Of a DNA stretch of 8,183 bases, positions 18-8,183 are shown one piece after another. The notes under the pieces were generated by a model. The model ran no database searches and was not told the DNA's origin. It saw only the letters and a list, made by a program, of their open reading frames with translations. A program made the translations under genes and the position numbers. Position 1 is the stretch's first letter. Each line of letters opens with the position of its first letter. The DNA comes from Naegleria gruberi (lineage: Eukaryota). The stretch is from NCBI GenBank assembly GCA_000004985.1, contig GG739082.1; one strand, given 5' to 3'.

Positions 18-794
18 TTGAACGCAGCTAATTTCGAGCAGAACTTTGATATTGCTATTTCTAATTGTTTCGACATGTTCATTGTAGTTGGTGGATCATC
101 ATTGAAGATTTTCGATAAATCAAAAGCTGTCACCTCTGAAAATTCCCTTTTATTTAATATCAAGTATAGGGAATTTTCGTTTCATTGCTTGCGATTGGTG
201 ACTGAGAATTCAGAGGAATTTATTTATGCAAGTAAAAGTGGAGGAATTATTAAAATTAGAGTGAAGGATTTGATGGAAGGAAAGGAAGGAATTGTGTGGG
301 AATGTAAAAAATCAAACACGAATATTTGGGGATTGGATTTGATGGGAAATCAAGTGTTTTTTATAGATTACAATAGATCAGTAATTTGTAAAGCAAATAA
401 GGAAACAGGAAAGGATGAAGGTGAAGATGTTATTCATTTATTTAATGGATATGGAATTGAATTTTTATCTGAAAGTGAAATATTGACATCCAATCAACAA
501 TCTTTAGAAATTTTCAAAAAACAAGAAAATAATTGGATTTCTAAAAGAAGAGTGGTTATTCCCAAGTGTTCTACCGCTTATTCAATATTTTATGAGAAGG
601 AATCTGGCTTAGTTTACTTATCTGATACTGAAAATAATCGAATTTTTGTCATTAGATTGTTTGATTTCTCAATTGTTAAAACATTTGAAGATTCTAATGC
701 CATTTCAAGAAATTTCGGATTGTTTGTTGATAAGCGAACTGGTTTACTCTATGTTGTTAATAACAAATCCAAAGAAATTTCTATTTTTCAATAA
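18..794 (+). CDS. NHL-repeat-like beta-propeller protein. The frame is open from the window start; the TTG start at 18 is an ORF-caller artefact. The first in-frame ATG is at 75, so the gene is either 5'-partial or starts at 75. The stop is TAA at 792-794.
   Basis: Continuous 258-codon ORF. Its motifs recur with about 40-aa spacing and resemble NHL or six-bladed propeller blades: GLVYLSDTENNRIFVI, GLLYVVNNKSKEISIF, NQVFFIDYNRSVICKA, GGIIKIRV. There are no upstream stops in frame back to nt 3. I identified the family from the motifs by eye, not by a search. Confidence 0.5.
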   Translation: MNAANFEQNFDIAISNCFDMFIVVGGSSLKIFDKSKAVTSENSLLFNIKYREFSFHCLRLVTENSEEFIYASKSGGIIKIRVKDLMEGKEGIVWECKKSNTNIWGLDLMGNQVFFIDYNRSVICKANKETGKDEGEDVIHLFNGYGIEFLSESEILTSNQQSLEIFKKQENNWISKRRVVIPKCSTAYSIFYEKESGLVYLSDTENNRIFVIRLFDFSIVKTFEDSNAISRNFGLFVDKRTGLLYVVNNKSKEISIFQ

Positions 795-935: not shown

Positions 936-1621
936 ATGTCTCACATTGACGATGAACTATCCTGCTGCTGTTGTTGCATTCTCATCGATGGATCATCTCT
1001 CTCTCATCAACCCTCCAACAATGTGTATTACCATAAATTGAGAGAAAAATTCAATGAACAACGTAAAGGCTATACTAAATGGTTACAAGCTCAAGTAAAT
1101 TTCATTCAATTACAGAGATTACGTAGAAGATCCGAATCAATTGCAGCATCACACACTTATCAGCATCTTCCTATTGAATTTTTATTTGATGATTATTTGG
1201 TAATTATGGCAATGAAGAATTTTCCATTGAATTATTCACATATTGTAAAACAATTACCATTTGTTTTGAATAGGACATCATTATTTAGACTTGCGTTTAA
1301 GAATTGTTATTCAGATCTGTTGTTTCAAGCCTCAGAAACAGCCAGGAAAGATCCAGAAATTGCACAAATGATTGTTCACTTTAAAGGAACAGAATTGGAA
1401 TTTCTCTCTGACGAATGTAAAGCCAATAGGAATGTGGTGTTATCTCCCGTTGGAAGTAGTGGATCAATGATTGAATTTGCGAGTGAAGAGTTGAGAAATG
1501 ATGAGGAAATTATTTTGGCTGCTGTTAAAAATGGTTACGTCAACTTTCCCAAATCAATATTCGAAAGATATCCTCAAGTAGCTGTGGAATGTATGGTTTT
1601 ATATTGGAATTCTAGAGTGAG
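936..1621 (+). CDS. DUF4116-repeat protein, 3'-truncated by the assembly gap (only the N-terminal 228 aa are visible).
   Basis: ATG at 936 in the A-rich context ttttaaaaaaATG, with an in-frame TAA at 915-917 upstream. The C-terminal part carries at least two DUF4116-type repeats: ...TELEFLSDECKANRNVVLSPVGSSGSMIEFASEELRNDEEIILAAVKNGY... These match the DUF4116 consensus (A/L x x A S E E L R N D x E I V L x A V x x N G). The ORF is still open where the N run begins at 1622. Confidence 0.7.
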
Positions 1622-4600
1622 NNNNNNNNNNNNNNNNNNNNNNNNNNNNNNNNNNNNNNNNNNNNNNNNNNNNNNNNNNNNNNNNNNNNNNNNNNNNNNN
1701 NNNNNNNNNNNNNNNNNNNNNNNNNNNNNNNNNNNNNNNNNNNNNNNNNNNNNNNNNNNNNNNNNNNNNNNNNNNNNNNNNNNNNNNNNNNNNNNNNNNN
1801 NNNNNNNNNNNNNNNNNNNNNNNNNNNNNNNNNNNNNNNNNNNNNNNNNNNNNNNNNNNNNNNNNNNNNNNNNNNNNNNNNNNNNNNNNNNNNNNNNNNN
1901 NNNNNNNNNNNNNNNNNNNNNNNNNNNNNNNNNNNNNNNNNNNNNNNNNNNNNNNNNNNNNNNNNNNNNNNNNNNNNNNNNNNNNNNNNNNNNNNNNNNN
2001 NNNNNNNNNNNNNNNNNNNNNNNNNNNNNNNNNNNNNNNNNNNNNNNNNNNNNNNNNNNNNNNNNNNNNNNNNNNNNNNNNNNNNNNNNNNNNNNNNNNN
2101 NNNNNNNNNNNNNNNNNNNNNNNNNNNNNNNNNNNNNNNNNNNNNNNNNNNNNNNNNNNNNNNNNNNNNNNNNNNNNNNNNNNNNNNNNNNNNNNNNNNN
2201 NNNNNNNNNNNNNNNNNNNNNNNNNNNNNNNNNNNNNNNNNNNNNNNNNNNNNNNNNNNNNNNNNNNNNNNNNNNNNNNNNNNNNNNNNNNNNNNNNNNN
2301 NNNNNNNNNNNNNNNNNNNNNNNNNNNNNNNNNNNNNNNNNNNNNNNNNNNNNNNNNNNNNNNNNNNNNNNNNNNNNNNNNNNNNNNNNNNNNNNNNNNN
2401 NNNNNNNNNNNNNNNNNNNNNNNNNNNNNNNNNNNNNNNNNNNNNNNNNNNNNNNNNNNNNNNNNNNNNNNNNNNNNNNNNNNNNNNNNNNNNNNNNNNN
2501 NNNNNNNNNNNNNNNNNNNNNNNNNNNNNNNNNNNNNNNNNNNNNNNNNNNNNNNNNNNNNNNNNNNNNNNNNNNNNNNNNNNNNNNNNNNNNNNNNNNN
2601 NNNNNNNNNNNNNNNNNNNNNNNNNNNNNNNNNNNNNNNNNNNNNNNNNNNNNNNNNNNNNNNNNNNNNNNNNNNNNNNNNNNNNNNNNNNNNNNNNNNN
2701 NNNNNNNNNNNNNNNNNNNNNNNNNNNNNNNNNNNNNNNNNNNNNNNNNNNNNNNNNNNNNNNNNNNNNNNNNNNNNNNNNNNNNNNNNNNNNNNNNNNN
2801 NNNNNNNNNNNNNNNNNNNNNNNNNNNNNNNNNNNNNNNNNNNNNNNNNNNNNNNNNNNNNNNNNNNNNNNNNNNNNNNNNNNNNNNNNNNNNNNNNNNN
2901 NNNNNNNNNNNNNNNNNNNNNNNNNNNNNNNNNNNNNNNNNNNNNNNNNNNNNNNNNNNNNNNNNNNNNNNNNNNNNNNNNNNNNNNNNNNNNNNNNNNN
3001 NNNNNNNNNNNNNNNNNNNNNNNNNNNNNNNNNNNNNNNNNNNNNNNNNNNNNNNNNNNNNNNNNNNNNNNNNNNNNNNNNNNNNNNNNNNNNNNNNNNN
3101 NNNNNNNNNNNNNNNNNNNNNNNNNNNNNNNNNNNNNNNNNNNNNNNNNNNNNNNNNNNNNNNNNNNNNNNNNNNNNNNNNNNNNNNNNNNNNNNNNNNN
3201 NNNNNNNNNNNNNNNNNNNNNNNNNNNNNNNNNNNNNNNNNNNNNNNNNNNNNNNNNNNNNNNNNNNNNNNNNNNNNNNNNNNNNNNNNNNNNNNNNNNN
3301 NNNNNNNNNNNNNNNNNNNNNNNNNNNNNNNNNNNNNNNNNNNNNNNNNNNNNNNNNNNNNNNNNNNNNNNNNNNNNNNNNNNNNNNNNNNNNNNNNNNN
3401 NNNNNNNNNNNNNNNNNNNNNNNNNNNNNNNNNNNNNNNNNNNNNNNNNNNNNNNNNNNNNNNNNNNNNNNNNNNNNNNNNNNNNNNNNNNNNNNNNNNN
3501 NNNNNNNNNNNNNNNNNNNNNNNNNNNNNNNNNNNNNNNNNNNNNNNNNNNNNNNNNNNNNNNNNNNNNNNNNNNNNNNNNNNNNNNNNNNNNNNNNNNN
3601 NNNNNNNNNNNNNNNNNNNNNNNNNNNNNNNNNNNNNNNNNNNNNNNNNNNNNNNNNNNNNNNNNNNNNNNNNNNNNNNNNNNNNNNNNNNNNNNNNNNN
3701 NNNNNNNNNNNNNNNNNNNNNNNNNNNNNNNNNNNNNNNNNNNNNNNNNNNNNNNNNNNNNNNNNNNNNNNNNNNNNNNNNNNNNNNNNNNNNNNNNNNN
3801 NNNNNNNNNNNNNNNNNNNNNNNNNNNNNNNNNNNNNNNNNNNNNNNNNNNNNNNNNNNNNNNNNNNNNNNNNNNNNNNNNNNNNNNNNNNNNNNNNNNN
3901 NNNNNNNNNNNNNNNNNNNNNNNNNNNNNNNNNNNNNNNNNNNNNNNNNNNNNNNNNNNNNNNNNNNNNNNNNNNNNNNNNNNNNNNNNNNNNNNNNNNN
4001 NNNNNNNNNNNNNNNNNNNNNNNNNNNNNNNNNNNNNNNNNNNNNNNNNNNNNNNNNNNNNNNNNNNNNNNNNNNNNNNNNNNNNNNNNNNNNNNNNNNN
4101 NNNNNNNNNNNNNNNNNNNNNNNNNNNNNNNNNNNNNNNNNNNNNNNNNNNNNNNNNNNNNNNNNNNNNNNNNNNNNNNNNNNNNNNNNNNNNNNNNNNN
4201 NNNNNNNNNNNNNNNNNNNNNNNNNNNNNNNNNNNNNNNNNNNNNNNNNNNNNNNNNNNNNNNNNNNNNNNNNNNNNNNNNNNNNNNNNNNNNNNNNNNN
4301 NNNNNNNNNNNNNNNNNNNNNNNNNNNNNNNNNNNNNNNNNNNNNNNNNNNNNNNNNNNNNNNNNNNNNNNNNNNNNNNNNNNNNNNNNNNNNNNNNNNN
4401 NNNNNNNNNNNNNNNNNNNNNNNNNNNNNNNNNNNNNNNNNNNNNNNNNNNNNNNNNNNNNNNNNNNNNNNNNNNNNNNNNNNNNNNNNNNNNNNNNNNN
4501 NNNNNNNNNNNNNNNNNNNNNNNNNNNNNNNNNNNNNNNNNNNNNNNNNNNNNNNNNNNNNNNNNNNNNNNNNNNNNNNNNNNNNNNNNNNNNNNNNNNN

Positions 4601-6214
4601 NNNNNNNNNNNNNNNNNNNNNNNNNNNNNNNNNNNNNNNNNNNNNNNNNNNNNNNNNNNNNNNNNNNNNNNNNNNNNNNNNNNNNNNNNNNNNNNNNNNN
4701 NNNNNNNNNNNNNNNNNNNNNNNNNNNNNNNNNNNNNNNNNNNNNNNNNNNNNNNNNNNNNNNNNNNNNNNNNNNNNNNNNNNNNNNNNNNNNNNNNNNN
4801 NNNNNNNNNNNNNNNNNNNNNNNNNNNNNNNNNNNNNNNNNNNNNNNNNNNNNNNNNNNNNNNNNNNNNNNNNNNNNNNNNNNNNNNNNNNNNNNNNNNN
4901 NNNNNNNNNNNNNNNNNNNNNNNNNNNNNNNNNNNNNNNNNNNNNNNNNNNNNNNNNNNNNNNNNNNNNNNNNNNNNNNNNNNNNNNNNNNNNNNNNNNN
5001 NNNNNNNNNNNNNNNNNNNNNNNNNNNNNNNNNNNNNNNNNNNNNNNNNNNNNNNNNNNNNNNNNNNNNNNNNNNNNNNNNNNNNNNNNNNNNNNNNNNN
5101 NNNNNNNNNNNNNNNNNNNNNNNNNNNNNNNNNNNNNNNNNNNNNNNNNNNNNNNNNNNNNNNNNNNNNNNNNNNNNNNNNNNNNNNNNNNNNNNNNNNN
5201 NNNNNNNNNNNNNNNNNNNNNNNNNNNNNNNNNNNNNNNNNNNNNNNNNNNNNNNNNNNNNNNNNNNNNNNNNNNNNNNNNNNNNNNNNNNNNNNNNNNN
5301 NNNNNNNNNNNNNNNNNNNNNNNNNNNNNNNNNNNNNNNNNNNNNNNNNNNNNNNNNNNNNNNNNNNNNNNNNNNNNNNNNNNNNNNNNNNNNNNNNNNN
5401 NNNNNNNNNNNNNNNNNNNNNNNNNNNNNNNNNNNNNNNNNNNNNNNNNNNNNNNNNNNNNNNNNNNNNNNNNNNNNNNNNNNNNNNNNNNNNNNNNNNN
5501 NNNNNNNNNNNNNNNNNNNNNNNNNNNNNNNNNNNNNNNNNNNNNNNNNNNNNNNNNNNNNNNNNNNNNNNNNNNNNNNNNNNNNNNNNNNNNNNNNNNN
5601 NNNNNNNNNNNNNNNNNNNNNNNNNNNNNNNNNNNNNNNNNNNNNNNNNNNNNNNNNNNNNNNNNNNNNNNNNNNNNNNNNNNNNNNNNNNNNNNNNNNN
5701 NNNNNNNNNNNNNNNNNNNNNNNNNNNNNNNNNNNNNNNNNNNNNNNNNNNNNNNNNNNNNNNNNNNNNNNNNNNNNNNNNNNNNNNNNNNNNNNNNNNN
5801 NNNNNNNNNNNNNNNNNNNNNNNNNNNNNNNNNNNNNNNNNNNNNNNNNNNNNNNNNNNNNNNNNNNNNNNNNNNNNNNNNNNNNNNNNNNNNNNNNNNN
5901 NNNNNNNNNNNNNNNNNNNNNNNNNNNNNNNNNNNNNNNNNNNNNNNNNNNNNNNNNNNNNNNNNNNNNNNNNNNNNNNNNNNNNNNNNNNNNNNNNNNN
6001 NNNNNNNNNNNNNNNNNNNNNNNNNNNNNNNNNNNNNNNNNNNNNNNNNNNNNNNNNNNNNNNNNNNNNNNNNNNNNNNNNNNNNNNNNNNNNNNNNNNN
6101 NNNNNNNNNNNNNNNNNNNNNNNNNNNNNNNNNNNNNNNNNNNNNNNNNNNNNNNNNNNNNNNNNNNNNNNNNNNNNNNNNNNNNNNNNNNNNNNNNNNN
6201 NNNNNNNNNNNNNN
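1622..6214. other. Assembly gap of 4,593 N. The X-containing ORFs in the track (936..6227, 1574..6223, 1599..6443, 1612..6255) come from translating this run.
   Basis: Uninterrupted n characters from 1622 to 6214. Confidence 0.99.
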
Positions 6215-6462
6215 CAGAGGCAATTAACATACACCCAACGAATACTATAACACATCCTCCAACTACAAATGATACAACTTGAATGGCAGTTGCATATTCT
6301 TTTGGAATGAAATCAAATCTCTTAATACCAGACATGATACCAATTAGGAGAATGATCAAAATGGCCAACATGACAAATAATGTGGCAATAATGGTCATTG
6401 AGGTTCGAATAATTTTGGAGGTTTCCTTAGTGATGGCTCTCATCAGTGTAGCTGTACTCCAA
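6215..6462 (-). CDS. Exon 2 of the same membrane protein gene, truncated at its 3' end by the gap.
   Basis: In frame with exon 1 after splicing: F-WSTATLMRAITKETSKIIRTSMTIIATLFVMLAILIILLIGIMSGIKRFDFIPKEYATAIQVVSFVVGGCVIVFVGCMLIAS... It adds two more predicted TM helices (TM4 and TM5). The frame is still open at the gap edge. Confidence 0.6.
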
Positions 6463-6506
6463 CTAGTATTTGTGTGTTAAAATATTTTGGAAATTCGAAT
6501 ACTTAC
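6463..6506 (-). other. Spliceosomal intron, 44 nt, GTAAGTATTC...ATACTAG on the minus strand.
   Basis: The minus strand reads ...AACATGTT|GTAAGTATTCGAATTTCCAAAATATTTTAACACACAAATACTAG|TTGGAGT... The donor GTAAGT is consensus and the acceptor ends in AG. Removing the 44 nt joins TT + T into TTT (Phe) and continues in frame into the downstream 82-codon open frame, which is rich in hydrophobic helices. Confidence 0.65.
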
Positions 6507-6958
6507 AACATGTTTTGAACGAAAACAATGATTGAAAACAGTGTCAAGAAATTACTTGTCATTGTAAAACTGTTCAGACCAAGAAATACTTGCATGGCAA
6601 TAAATAATTTCCATTCAATTAATTGTCCTGCTTCAATCTTTTCTCTGATGACTAATTGTAAGGTTTCGTTTACAACTCTTACAAGTAAACTAAATATTTG
6701 AACTGTTACATAAATACCAGTCATAATGAACAGTATCGTTTGGTTTCTCTTTAGTTTCAGTTTTCTTGTAACTCTAATGATGAATCCAATAAGAACAAAA
6801 ATGTAAACTGAAAAGAGAATGAGAAATATTATTGTATTCGAAAGCACTAAACCACTGGCCCAAATAGGTTTCATTTGATCCAAGGTAACATTCGTATAAC
6901 CTTCACCATTTACAATTACTGATGATGAATCTAATAGTGCAAATAAACGTTCTGACAT
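6507..6958 (-). CDS. Exon 1 (with start codon) of a multi-pass, 7TM-like membrane protein gene. It ends in codon phase 2 at the GTAAGT donor.
   Basis: ATG at 6958-6956 in the context acaaaaaATG. The ORF encodes hydrophobic helices ASGLVLSNTIIFLILFSVYIFVLIGFII, TILFIMTGIYVTVQIFSLLV and WKLFIAMQVFLGLNSFTMTSNFLTLFSIIVFV. N-glycosylation sequons NVT and NET sit in predicted extracellular segments, and the predicted cytosolic loop RVTRKLKLKRNQ is basic (positive-inside rule). The apparent stop at 6505-6503 is the TAA inside the donor GTAAGT. Confidence 0.65.
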
Positions 6959-7040
6959 TTTTTGTATGATTATTTGTAGATGTTGGTTATTGTGTTGTTC
7001 TTGAAAATGGGTATCGATGCTAGATCATAGATTCGAATAT

Positions 7041-7058
7041 CTTCTCTTTATAGAGAAG
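7041..7058. promoter_or_regulatory. Perfect 7-bp stem with a 4-nt loop, cttctct-ttat-agagaag, about 85 nt upstream of the membrane-protein ATG. Function unknown.
   Basis: Exact inverted repeat read directly from the sequence. It directly abuts the palindromic ATTCGAAT at 7031-7038. Confidence 0.2.
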
Positions 7059-7488
7059 GGAAAATAATCATGACTATTTGAAATCAAATTAGTAGAAATG
7101 AAAACATGATTGGAAGGAAGCTATCAATTCTATATTTATTCGAATCTATTTATTAGGACGAGCCAAAAAAGTACAAGTCGAAAGGTCATACACATCAGTT
7201 CATTACCAACATTTCTGCAAAAAACATTTGGCTGATGTCCAGTAAAGAGGCAGATGGAATGTATTCTTTTCTCCTGTCTGAAATAATCTCAGTACTATAC
7301 CCAATTGTCTTTATTTTATCGAAACATATGCTCAAAAAAATTGTCATACTATGGTCCCACCCTTGTCCACCCTCAAAGGTTCTATCCTAATACTTTAGAA
7401 TGTGATTTAACCAATTCTCAATTATTTAACTGGAATAAATTTTGAAACGTGCAAATTTGAAACTGTCTTTTAATTTGTTCAGATTGAT

Positions 7489-8183
7489 TTAATTTTTTCT
7501 AATCCAATCCGCTACCCGTTTTGTCGCCTGTTCTTGAACTTCTAAACTAAACACCAGTAGATCTGTTTTACCATCCACATAGGCATCTTTTGCGAGACTT
7601 AAACACTCACTAAACAATCTGTCAGCTACTCTGCCATTGTACTGTTCTAATCTAGTTTGTGGAATTTGGGTTTCTAGTAATTGCAAGAGATGCTCTTCTT
7701 CAAATTGGATAAGATTATCTGGATGTTCTATGGAATACTTTTTAACCAACAAGACCAATATGTTGACGATATCTGAATATGATAAAGCAGAAAATGTAAT
7801 GTGTTTTCTAATTCTAGATTTCAATCCTGGGTTAATCTCTATGAAATTAGCAATTTCTTGGTCATAGCCTGCAAAAACAATAATTGGAGTATCGTCTTTG
7901 CCACTAGTGAGTTCCGTCATGATAACCTCAATACATTCCTTTCCAAAATCATTGCTTGATTTTCCTCTTGAAAGAGAGTATGCCTCATCAATAAACAGCA
8001 CACCACCTCTGGCTTCATCAATCACCTTTTGAGTTTTTGGTGCTGTGTGTCCTACATATTCACCAACAAGATCGGNCCTTCCCACTTCTTTGACAACATT
8101 CTTCTTGATAATTTGGAGCTTGTGAAGAATATTAGAAACCAATCTAGCAACCGTTGTTTTGGCAGTTCCTGGTGGTCCTCTGA
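7489..8183 (-). CDS. AAA+ ATPase of the CbbX/SpoVK family. It is 5'-partial: the N-terminus lies beyond the window end. The TTG at 8142 scored as Met in the ORF track is internal (Leu).
   Basis: Reading upstream of 8142 the frame stays open to the window edge: RGPPGTAKTTVARLVSNILHKLQ... The Walker A-like motif is GPPGTAKT. Walker B is GGVLFIDEAYSL. The downstream block IIVFAGYDQEIANFIEINPGLKSRIRKHITF parallels the CbbX sensor and arginine-finger region (ILAGY...NPGFRSRI...F). The stop is TAA at 7491-7489. An n at 8077 gives one X residue. Confidence 0.85.
   Translation of the reverse strand, partial: RGPPGTAKTTVARLVSNILHKLQIIKKNVVKEVGRXDLVGEYVGHTAPKTQKVIDEARGGVLFIDEAYSLSRGKSSNDFGKECIEVIMTELTSGKDDTPIIVFAGYDQEIANFIEINPGLKSRIRKHITFSALSYSDIVNILVLLVKKYSIEHPDNLIQFEEEHLLQLLETQIPQTRLEQYNGRVADRLFSECLSLAKDAYVDGKTDLLVFSLEVQEQATKRVADWIRKN

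What the first reader, a model, noticed from the sequence alone, without database searches (positions are those of the whole stretch)
6215..6958. Two separate minus-strand ORFs are one spliced gene for a 7TM-like membrane protein, joined by a 44-nt GTAAGT intron
The stop that ends ORF 6503..6958 is the TAA inside a consensus donor GTAAGT. Forty-four nucleotides later an AG acceptor restores the exact frame of the long hydrophobic ORF that runs to the gap edge. The joined product has at least five predicted TM helices. Its basic loops alternate with loops carrying N-x-T sequons (NVT in the N-terminal tail, NET in the first outer loop), which fits an N-out receptor topology. This single feature most strongly shows the locus is eukaryotic and that a prokaryote-style ORF list fragments its genes. 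The receptor family is not identifiable by eye; it could be a lineage-specific chemoreceptor-type family.
Basis: seen in the sequence. Interest (0 to 1): 0.5.

Follow-up and report, generated by a model that had tools for sequence, protein, structure and literature searches.

The report
Spliced Naegleria seven-helix membrane protein gene
The two minus-strand ORFs are one Naegleria gruberi gene, split by a real 44-base intron, that encodes an uncharacterised seven-helix receptor-like membrane protein; the same spliced protein is already in GenBank from another scaffold, so this only corrects a truncated gene model.

Summary
On the minus strand, ORF 6958..6503 ends at the TAA inside GTAAGT (6506..6501). 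Removing 6506..6463 (44 nt, GT..AG) joins a split Phe codon (TT|T) to the hydrophobic ORF that runs into the N gap (1622..6214).

The window is an 8183-bp Naegleria gruberi scaffold. Its annotated model, NAEGRDRAFT_76683, is only the unspliced 151-aa ORF. A 443-aa N. gruberi protein on a 379,849-bp scaffold, NAEGRDRAFT_70000 / XP_002674996.1, matches the window's spliced product over all 233 visible residues, junction included.

Five homologous genes (six loci) from N. lovaniensis and from environmental contigs carry an intron at the same codon and phase. Their lengths are 40, 59, 75, 95 and 104 nt, and their sequences are unrelated. The motif FVQxxFWxTAxLxRAIS spans the junction, and the split Phe is invariant.

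The family was found only in Naegleria and in environmental contigs, and every named member is "hypothetical". Receptor function is inferred, not shown. No transcript evidence was available here. The result is ordinary: a gene-model fix whose correct form is already public.

The parts
6507..6958 (-). Exon 1 of the 7TM gene. The start ATG is at 6958..6956. The exon is 452 nt: codons 1-150 plus the first two bases (TT) of the Phe151 codon. It encodes the N-terminal tail with the conserved G-Y-x-N-V-T sequon, then TM1, TM2 and most of TM3.
   Evidence: sequence and translation; identical to residues 1-150 of XP_002674996.1; the N-terminal MS and the GYxN[VI][TS] motif are conserved in homologues.
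6463..6506 (-). Spliceosomal intron, 44 nt, phase 2, GC 0.25: GTAAGTATTCGAATTTCCAAAATATTTTAACACACAAATACTAG. The in-frame TAA at 6505..6503 is the apparent stop of the 151-aa ORF.
   Evidence: Same position and phase in L002 (59 nt), L003 (75 nt), L006 (95 nt), L007 (104 nt) and L004/L005 (40 nt). Its removal is required to give the annotated 443-aa protein.
6501..6506 (-). 5' splice site, GTAAGT.
   Evidence: the only GTAAGT in the window on either strand. The four N. lovaniensis genes examined (L002, L003, L006, L007) also have GTAAGT, and the environmental one (L004/L005) has GTGAGT.
6476..6480 (-). Possible branch-point motif TTAAC, ending 13 nt before the 3' end of the intron. This is weak and inferred only.
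   Evidence: TTAAC lies 10-15 nt from the 3' end in the three shortest homologous introns. The motif is common in AT-rich DNA, so it is suggestive only.
6463..6464 (-). 3' splice site AG (context CTAG|T).
6215..6462 (-). Visible 5' part of exon 2. It holds the third base of the Phe151 codon and codons 152-233, then runs into the assembly gap. It encodes the end of TM3, the basic loop MRAITKETSKIIR, TM4, and TM5 as far as ...CMLIAS.
   Evidence: The continuation is supplied by P0002 on contig L001 and by P0003: 210 more codons with TM5's end, a long inner loop, TM6, TM7 and a Ser/Thr-rich tail.
1622..6214 (.). Assembly gap (4593 N) that removes the 3' 210 codons of the gene from this scaffold.
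6444..6613 (-). TM3 helix (residues 116-157 of the model), interrupted in the DNA by the intron. It contains the family motif FVQNM-F-WSTATL.
   Evidence: continuous helix 116-157 with block pLDDT 88-92; the motif is conserved, and F151 and T154 are invariant in the 9-sequence alignment.

Best explanation
Window 6215..6958 (minus strand) is the 5' 233 codons of a two-exon Naegleria gruberi gene. It is a second, gap-truncated copy (or redundant assembly) of NAEGRDRAFT_70000.

The primary transcript carries a 44-nt U2-type GT-AG intron (6506..6463). The spliceosome removes it and joins TT|T into the Phe151 codon in the middle of the conserved TM3 motif FVQxxFWxTA. Without splicing, translation stops at the TAA inside the donor and yields a 3-helix, 151-aa fragment.

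The spliced mRNA encodes a 443-aa protein with seven transmembrane helices, the N-terminus outside and the C-terminus inside. The short N-terminal tail carries a conserved N-glycosylation sequon. The inner loops 1 and 2 are basic. There is a roughly 50-residue loop between TM5 and TM6 and a roughly 90-residue disordered Ser/Thr-rich C-terminal tail.

The fold is that of the GPCR/rhodopsin 7TM superfamily. The family has so far been found only in Naegleria and in unassigned environmental contigs.

Most likely role (inferred, not shown): a cell-surface receptor that passes an extracellular signal to cytosolic partners through the TM5-TM6 loop and the tail, possibly heterotrimeric G proteins.

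Shown here: the gene structure, the conserved intron position, the seven helices and the fold class. Inferred: actual splicing in vivo, topology, glycosylation and receptor function.
For: **Gene structure**
- Searches give the exact donor, acceptor and phase.
- One search identifies the window as the N. gruberi 8183-bp scaffold whose model is the 151-aa ORF only.
- Searches show a 443-aa N. gruberi protein (EFC42252.1 / XP_002674996.1, on a 379,849-bp scaffold) that is identical to the spliced product over residues 1-233, including ...VQNMFWSTATLMRAI....

**Comparative support**
- 34 relatives in an exhaustive search. The full-length ones have about 150-190 residues N-terminal to the MRAITK-equivalent position.
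- the motif FVQxxFWxTAxLxRAIS is contiguous across the junction in all 10 full-length homologues, and F151 is invariant. About 12 ORF-call fragments start right at the junction.
- the intron is in the same codon and phase in five other genes (six loci), with lengths of 40-104 nt. All are GT[AG]AGT..AG, all have an in-frame stop, and their sequences are unrelated.
- no other GT..AG pair reproduces the family motif.

**Protein**
- the positive-inside pattern is consistent with N-out only if TM3 is counted as a helix.
- the AlphaFold2 model has pLDDT 79.8 and pTM 0.74, with seven long helices and TM3 continuous across residue 151.
- all top Foldseek PDB hits are GPCRs.
- Literature (PMC9283941): Naegleria has G-alpha subunits that appear to need an exchange factor, yet only one recognisable candidate GPCR. 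The authors mention additional unassignable 7TM proteins.
Against: - **No transcript evidence was obtained.** No spliced-junction sequence was found in metagenome or metatranscriptome contigs. No transcript-derived protein spanning the junction was in the protein collection. The 443-aa model and the N. lovaniensis models are themselves gene predictions.
- **The closest genomic relative is uninformative on the intron.** L001 (98.5% identical) has an identical intron. It also carries a 1-nt insertion that frameshifts exon 1. This is either an assembly error or a sign that some copies are decaying.
- **No sequence link to a known receptor family.** Nothing was found in Pfam or among PDB sequences.
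- **Too few substitutions to test selection.** The window and L001 differ by 3 synonymous and 3 non-synonymous changes.
Confidence: 0.9

Rival explanations
1. There are two independent genes. A 151-aa three-helix membrane protein ends at the TAA, which is the current annotation of this scaffold (NAEGRDRAFT_76683). A separate downstream gene starts at ATG 6443 (MRAITK...). No splicing occurs.
For: Both ORFs begin with ATG and are listed as separate ORFs. Public databases hold unspliced models of exactly this kind: P0001 at 151 aa, P0002 at 286 aa, and N. gruberi NAEGRDRAFT_68067 at 249 aa starting MRAVNK.
Against: - The ORFs are only 59 nt apart (6503 to 6443), with no room for a promoter or a 3' end.
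- The conserved motif FVQxxFWxTA straddles the two ORFs in every full-length homologue.
- The interruption sits in the same codon in six loci, always flanked by GT[AG]AGT..AG.
- The model makes TM3 one continuous helix across the junction.
- Seven helices give a consistent positive-inside topology; a 3 + 4 split does not.
- The same genome's main-scaffold annotation already splices the two parts.
Confidence: 0.03
2. The window copy is not a functional gene. It is an assembly-redundant haplotig, or a chimeric small scaffold or decaying duplicate, of the NAEGRDRAFT_70000 locus. Under this reading the splice is real only for the main-scaffold copy.
For: - The scaffold is only 8183 bp and 56% of it is N.
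- The visible 233 residues are 100% identical to the main-scaffold protein.
- The near-identical environmental contig L001 has a different upstream neighbour beyond window 7196.
- L001 carries a frameshift in exon 1.
Against: - The window copy itself has an intact start, intact splice sites and open exons.
- This rival concerns copy number and assembly, not the gene structure, so it is compatible with the best explanation.
- The main scaffold's DNA could not be retrieved to compare flanks.
- The neighbour-based test returned no Naegleria hit.
Confidence: 0.5
3. The protein is a 7TM protein but not a signalling receptor. It could be a transporter or channel-like protein, a Golgi 7TM protein of the TMEM87/GOST type, or a retinal-binding rhodopsin.
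Against: - TM7 (SVIWQFLNCTGVLIFGILILFLFYPLF) has no lysine, and none is conserved in the family alignment. A retinal Schiff-base rhodopsin is therefore unlikely.
- There is no lumenal GOLD-type domain: the N-terminal tail is only about 30 residues.
- The architecture is the usual GPCR layout: a short glycosylated N-tail, a long TM5-TM6 loop and a long Ser/Thr-rich tail.
- All 50 Foldseek hits listed (of 605) are GPCRs.
Confidence: 0.3

Closest known systems
N. gruberi predicted protein NAEGRDRAFT_70000 (EFC42252.1 / XP_002674996.1 / UniProt D2VM39), 443 aa
   Same: It is identical to the window's spliced product over residues 1-233, including the exon-exon junction. It comes from the same species.
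   Different: It lies on a 379,849-bp scaffold and is complete. The window copy is cut by a gap after codon 233, and its own annotation (NAEGRDRAFT_76683) stops at the intron. Neither protein has a name, a domain assignment or any experimental data.
Naegleria orphan 7TM paralogue family: N. gruberi P0004, P0005 and P0007; N. lovaniensis C9374_011672, _011240, _012248, _000881, _013491, _007817, _004659 and _010713; plus environmental ORFs
   Same: They are 23-72% identical. They share the seven-helix layout and the motifs GYxNVT, KRNxKILF, FVQxxFWxTAxLxRAIS, SGIxVxxTIK, RVQSPFKITFGLL and LFYPxF. They have the same phase-2 intron in the Phe codon.
   Different: Intron lengths range from 40 to 104 nt. 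The N-terminal tails, TM5-TM6 loops and C-tails vary in length. Several members are annotated only from the second exon.
G-protein-coupled receptors (classes A, C and D/Ste2; Dictyostelium cAR-like)
   Different: - Sequence identity is 6-14%.
- No Pfam 7tm_1/2/3, Dicty_CAR, Git3, STE2/STE3 or Frizzled match reaches threshold.
- The class A signatures DRY, CWxP and NPxxY are absent. The corresponding places read FWxTA...RAIS and LFYPxF.
- G-protein coupling was not tested.
Naegleria 7TM-RGS proteins (PMC9283941)
   Same: They are Naegleria 7TM proteins proposed to regulate heterotrimeric G proteins.
   Different: The protein here has no RGS domain or any other recognisable cytosolic domain. No sequence comparison with the 7TM part of those proteins was made.

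Membership tests
U2-type spliceosomal intron | GT at the 5' end and AG at the 3' end, with an extended donor consensus | tested here: met
   GTAAGT...CTAG at 6506..6463.
U2-type spliceosomal intron | Removal restores a continuous reading frame that matches homologous proteins without a gap | tested here: met
   The joined sequence QNM-F-WSTATLMRAI aligns column for column with the FVQxxFWxTAxLxRAIS motif of 9 other full-length homologues, and F151 is invariant. It is identical to XP_002674996.1. None of the other 46 frame-preserving GT..AG pairs reproduces the motif.
U2-type spliceosomal intron | Position and phase conserved in homologous genes, while the intron sequence and length are free to vary | tested here: met
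   Six loci share the same codon and phase 2. Lengths are 40, 44, 59, 75, 95 and 104 nt, with no sequence similarity beyond the splice sites.
U2-type spliceosomal intron | Branch-point motif upstream of the acceptor | tested here: inconclusive
   TTAAC lies 13 nt from the 3' end here and 10-15 nt in two other short introns. YTRAY motifs are frequent in AT-rich DNA.
U2-type spliceosomal intron | Absence of the interval from mature mRNA | not testable with these tools
   No cDNA or RNA-seq data are accessible. Exact-junction scans of metagenome contigs found nothing. N. gruberi RNA-seq exists under PRJEB23822.
Seven-transmembrane (GPCR/rhodopsin-like) fold | Seven membrane-spanning helices in one bundle | tested here: met
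   The AlphaFold2 model has helices at 32-66, 71-109, 116-157, 163-199, 205-263, 276-318 and 322-376, with pLDDT 79.8. Hydropathy finds 6 strong segments plus a more polar TM3.
Seven-transmembrane (GPCR/rhodopsin-like) fold | Structural superposition on solved 7TM receptors | tested here: met
G-protein-coupled receptor (any named class) | Significant match to a class profile (Pfam 7tm_1, 7tm_2, 7tm_3, Frizzled, Dicty_CAR, STE2, STE3, Git3 and others) | tested here: not met
   Nothing reaches a gathering score for the protein or for any of the 26 family members. One member gave a single stray STE3 hit at E 0.0087. The profile search against PDB sequences was empty.
G-protein-coupled receptor (any named class) | Class A microswitch motifs (E/DRY in TM3, CWxP in TM6, NPxxY in TM7) | tested here: not met
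   In alignment A1 the TM3 end reads FVQxxFWxTA, TM6 reads FGLLxGLLxC..Q, and TM7 ends LFYPxF.
G-protein-coupled receptor (any named class) | Ligand-dependent activation of a heterotrimeric G protein | not testable with these tools
   This needs biochemistry. Naegleria does encode G-alpha subunits limited by nucleotide exchange (PMC9283941).
Microbial (type I) rhodopsin | Conserved retinal-binding lysine in TM7 | tested here: not met
   There is no lysine in TM7 of this protein or of its homologues.

The most novel reading that the evidence does not exclude
This Naegleria-restricted orphan 7TM family has at least 4 genes in N. gruberi and at least 8 in N. lovaniensis, and none has a detectable domain. 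It could be a previously unrecognised class of G-protein-coupled receptors. Such receptors would supply the missing exchange factors for the slow-exchanging G-alpha subunits described in Naegleria, where only one cAR-like candidate GPCR is recognisable by sequence.
Probability: 0.2. Interest if true: 0.5.

Novelty: already known. Interest (0 to 1): 0.13.

Why it matters
In practice this is a gene-model correction. NAEGRDRAFT_76683 (151 aa) should be merged with the downstream ORF. At least two other family members look truncated at the same intron: N. gruberi NAEGRDRAFT_68067 and N. lovaniensis C9374_004659.

The correct spliced protein is already public, so nothing new about gene structure is learned.

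The modest wider point concerns the family. It is an unnamed, Naegleria-restricted group with a GPCR-like fold. It belongs to a genus whose G-protein signalling has many G-alpha and RGS proteins but almost no recognisable receptors. One species of that genus, N. fowleri, is a lethal human pathogen. The family is a reasonable candidate list for receptor hunting, but that idea is untested.

Tried and rejected
- **Pfam.** Searches with the 233-aa and 443-aa products and with all 26 family members gave only noise.
- **PDB by sequence.** The single sequence and the profile found nothing.
- **afdb50 fold library.** It was unavailable, so no comparison with predicted structures of annotated proteins was possible.
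- **Contig look-ups.** P0001, P0003 and P0004 are not on record. The main-scaffold DNA and the closest paralogue's intron therefore could not be inspected.
- **Transcript evidence.** Exact spliced-junction scans of metagenome contigs, for the window gene and for the environmental homologue, found no cDNA-like sequence.
- **Haplotig test.** I searched with the neighbouring AAA ATPase to see whether the window is a haplotig of the main scaffold. Only bacterial CbbX/SpoVK-like proteins at 36-56% identity were listed, with no Naegleria hit, so the question stays open.
- **RGS neighbour.** I checked whether the RGS gene next to the N. lovaniensis homologue in L002 is a 7TM-RGS protein. Its ORFs look soluble, so I dropped the lead.
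- **Ciliate genetic code (TAA = Gln).** Read-through would run only 22 more codons to a TGA. I rejected this because the organism is Naegleria and the homologues fix the junction.
- **Second short intron.** I considered GTAAGAG...TTAG at about 6685..6655, around the site of L001's extra A. It is 31 nt in the window, so removing it breaks the frame.
- **Selection test.** The window and L001 differ by 3 synonymous and 3 non-synonymous substitutions, too few to say anything.

Full report
**1. What the sequence shows.**

Read on the minus strand, the 151-codon ORF that starts at ATG 6958 ends ...CAA AAC ATG TTG TAA GT. Its stop codon (6505..6503) lies inside GTAAGT (6506..6501). Forty-four bases after the G of that hexamer there is an AG (6464..6463).

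Exon 1 (6958..6507) is 452 nt and so ends with two bases of a codon, TT. The base after the AG is T. Splicing therefore makes a Phe codon and continues W S T A T L M R A I T K E T S K.... This is the frame of the hydrophobic ORF that stays open until the scaffold gap begins at 6214.

The gap is 4593 N (1622..6214), more than half of the window. The joined visible product is 233 aa.

**2. Is it more than chance?**

By itself, it is only weakly so. GTAAGT occurs once in the window, at this site, but one occurrence somewhere is what shuffles give (mean 1.23). I also enumerated the GT..AG pairs near the junction. Forty-seven of them leave the short visible stretch free of stops. "An AG restores the frame" is therefore not strong evidence on its own. 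The comparison with other sequences settles the matter.

**3. Identity of the locus.**

The 151-aa ORF is an exact match to "predicted protein [Naegleria gruberi]" on an 8183-bp contig (EFC35660.1 / XP_002668404.1, NAEGRDRAFT_76683). The window is therefore a small N. gruberi scaffold, and its public gene model is the unspliced first ORF.

The second ORF matches P0002. This is a 286-aa ORF call on an environmental metagenome contig (L001, 3674 bp) that is 98.5% identical to window 6215..7196 and still contains the identical 44-nt interval. P0002 supplies the part lost in the gap.

Looking up P0002's 90%-identity cluster gave the key result. Its other member is a 443-aa N. gruberi protein, EFC42252.1 / XP_002674996.1 / NAEGRDRAFT_70000 / UniProt D2VM39, on a 379,849-bp scaffold. 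Its first 233 residues are identical to the window's spliced product, including ...FVQNMFWSTATLMRAI.... Its length is exactly what I had calculated for exon 1 plus the junction plus P0002 (157 + 286 = 443).

**4. Comparative test of the intron.**

An exhaustive phmmer search with P0002 found 34 relatives. Those that carry names are all "predicted" or "hypothetical" proteins of N. gruberi or N. lovaniensis. The rest are unnamed ORFs from environmental assemblies.

- In the alignment of full-length members, the motif FVQxxFWxTAxLxRAIS runs straight across the junction. The Phe encoded by the split codon is invariant.
- About a dozen shorter database entries begin at or within a few residues of the junction. 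This is expected if unspliced ORF callers, and some annotation pipelines, break at the same place.
- I fetched genomic DNA for four N. lovaniensis members and one environmental member and located the interruptions (analysis).
- In every case an intron sits after the second base of that same Phe codon.
- The boundaries are GTAAGT...AG, or GTGAGT...AG in the environmental gene.
- The lengths are 59, 75, 95, 104 and 40 nt, against 44 nt here.
- Every intron has an in-frame stop, and the intron interiors show no sequence similarity to one another.

A position and phase that are conserved, flanked by conserved coding sequence, with free intron length and sequence, is the classical signature of a genuine and ancient intron. 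It does not depend on any one gene prediction.

**5. What the protein is.**

Hydropathy gives six strongly hydrophobic segments plus a more polar one (residues about 115-150). The basic loops fall on one side only if that polar segment is counted as TM3.

An AlphaFold2 model of the 443-aa protein, built with the 26-sequence family alignment, is confident (mean pLDDT 79.8, pTM 0.74). It has seven long helices: 32-66, 71-109, 116-157, 163-199, 205-263, 276-318 and 322-376. TM3 is continuous across residue 151. The last 60 or so residues are disordered.

- Foldseek against the PDB returns only GPCRs among the 50 hits listed, though weakly (E from 5e-3, TM-score 0.3-0.55).
- The fold class is therefore clear, a 7TM GPCR/rhodopsin-like bundle, but no receptor class stands out.
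- By sequence there is nothing. No Pfam family matches the protein or any of the 26 relatives, and no PDB sequence matches, even with a profile.
- TM7 has no lysine, which argues against a retinal-binding rhodopsin.
- There is no large extracellular or cytosolic domain.
- The layout is the usual receptor one: a short N-tail with a conserved G-Y-x-N-V-T sequon, a long TM5-TM6 loop and a Ser/Thr-rich tail.

**6. How it most likely works.**

Shown: the gene has two exons, the intron position is conserved, and the product is a 7TM protein with a GPCR-like fold.

Inferred:
- The spliceosome removes 6506..6463.
- The protein inserts N-out and C-in and is N-glycosylated at N23.
- It acts as a surface receptor that signals through its third inner loop and its tail.

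G-protein coupling is a reasonable guess. Naegleria has G-alpha subunits whose nucleotide exchange is rate-limiting, and so presumably need a receptor. Only one sequence-recognisable candidate GPCR has been reported, and the authors mention additional unassignable 7TM proteins (PMC9283941). Nothing here tests that guess. I put receptor function at roughly one in three, and G-protein coupling specifically at about one in five.

**7. Rivals.**

- *Two separate genes.* This is effectively excluded by the 59-nt spacing, the junction-spanning motif, the conserved interruption and the continuous TM3 helix.
- *A non-receptor 7TM protein.* This remains open.
- *A redundant copy.* The window copy may be a redundant haplotig, a chimeric scaffold or a real second locus. 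This is unresolved. The visible coding sequence gives a protein identical to the main-scaffold one, and the scaffold is tiny and mostly gap. The near-identical contig L001 has a different upstream neighbour beyond window 7196. I could not retrieve the main scaffold's DNA, and a search with the neighbouring AAA ATPase did not help. This question concerns copy number, not the gene structure.

**8. Caveats.**

No transcript evidence was available. Two exact-junction scans of metagenome contigs were empty. The 443-aa model and the N. lovaniensis models are predictions.

L001 has a one-base insertion that frameshifts exon 1. With only 3 synonymous and 3 non-synonymous differences, I cannot say whether that is an assembly error or a decaying allele.

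**9. Verdict.**

The finding is ordinary: it corrects a truncated gene model on a fragmentary scaffold, and the correct spliced protein is already in GenBank and UniProt. The protein family is unnamed, restricted to Naegleria as far as the databases show, and has a GPCR-like fold. That is mildly interesting as a lead for Naegleria receptor biology, but it is not a discovery about this locus.

Noticed in passing
window 7197..8183 versus L001 1..973: The environmental contig L001 is 98.5% identical to window 6215..7196 but diverges completely upstream. L001 has a 323-aa ORF ending at L001:973, whereas the window has an AAA ATPase gene. The cause could be a rearrangement between strains, a segmental duplication, or a chimeric join in this small scaffold.
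   Followed up: partly
L001 1506 (equivalent to window 6671): There is a one-base A insertion in exon 1 of the near-identical environmental copy. It frameshifts the gene, so the ORF call there is 108 aa. This is either an assembly error or a pseudogenised allele.
   Followed up: partly
window 7489..8142 (-): An ORF encodes the C-terminal part of a CbbX/SpoVK-type AAA+ ATPase. All 120 listed database hits are bacterial or metagenomic at 36-56% identity, and no Naegleria protein was listed. It may be a gene of bacterial ancestry in the amoeba. There is a single N at 8076.
   Followed up: partly
window 936..1621 (+) and 18..794 (+): Two further ORFs are present. One has DUF4116 repeats (E 6e-17) and runs into the gap. 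The other, 258 aa, has a marginal NHL-repeat match and looks like part of a beta-propeller protein.
   Followed up: no
P0005 (N. gruberi NAEGRDRAFT_68067, 249 aa) and P0016 (N. lovaniensis C9374_004659, 316 aa): These other annotated family members start at or within a few residues of the conserved intron position (MRAVNK..., ..LTSWKTARLMRAIT). They probably lack their first exon in the public annotation, the same error as in the window.
   Followed up: partly
L002 756..2622 and 5625..7544; L003 1..766; L004 3250..3876: Family members in N. lovaniensis and in environmental contigs sit next to signalling genes: an RGS-domain protein, a hybrid histidine kinase, a cyclic-nucleotide phosphodiesterase and a BLUF-domain protein. 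Such genes are very abundant in Naegleria, so this may be coincidence.
   Followed up: no
L004 387..426 versus L005 2945..2984: Two environmental copies of the same homologue differ at the base before the acceptor (CGAG versus CCAG) but keep the AG and the 40-nt intron length.
   Followed up: no
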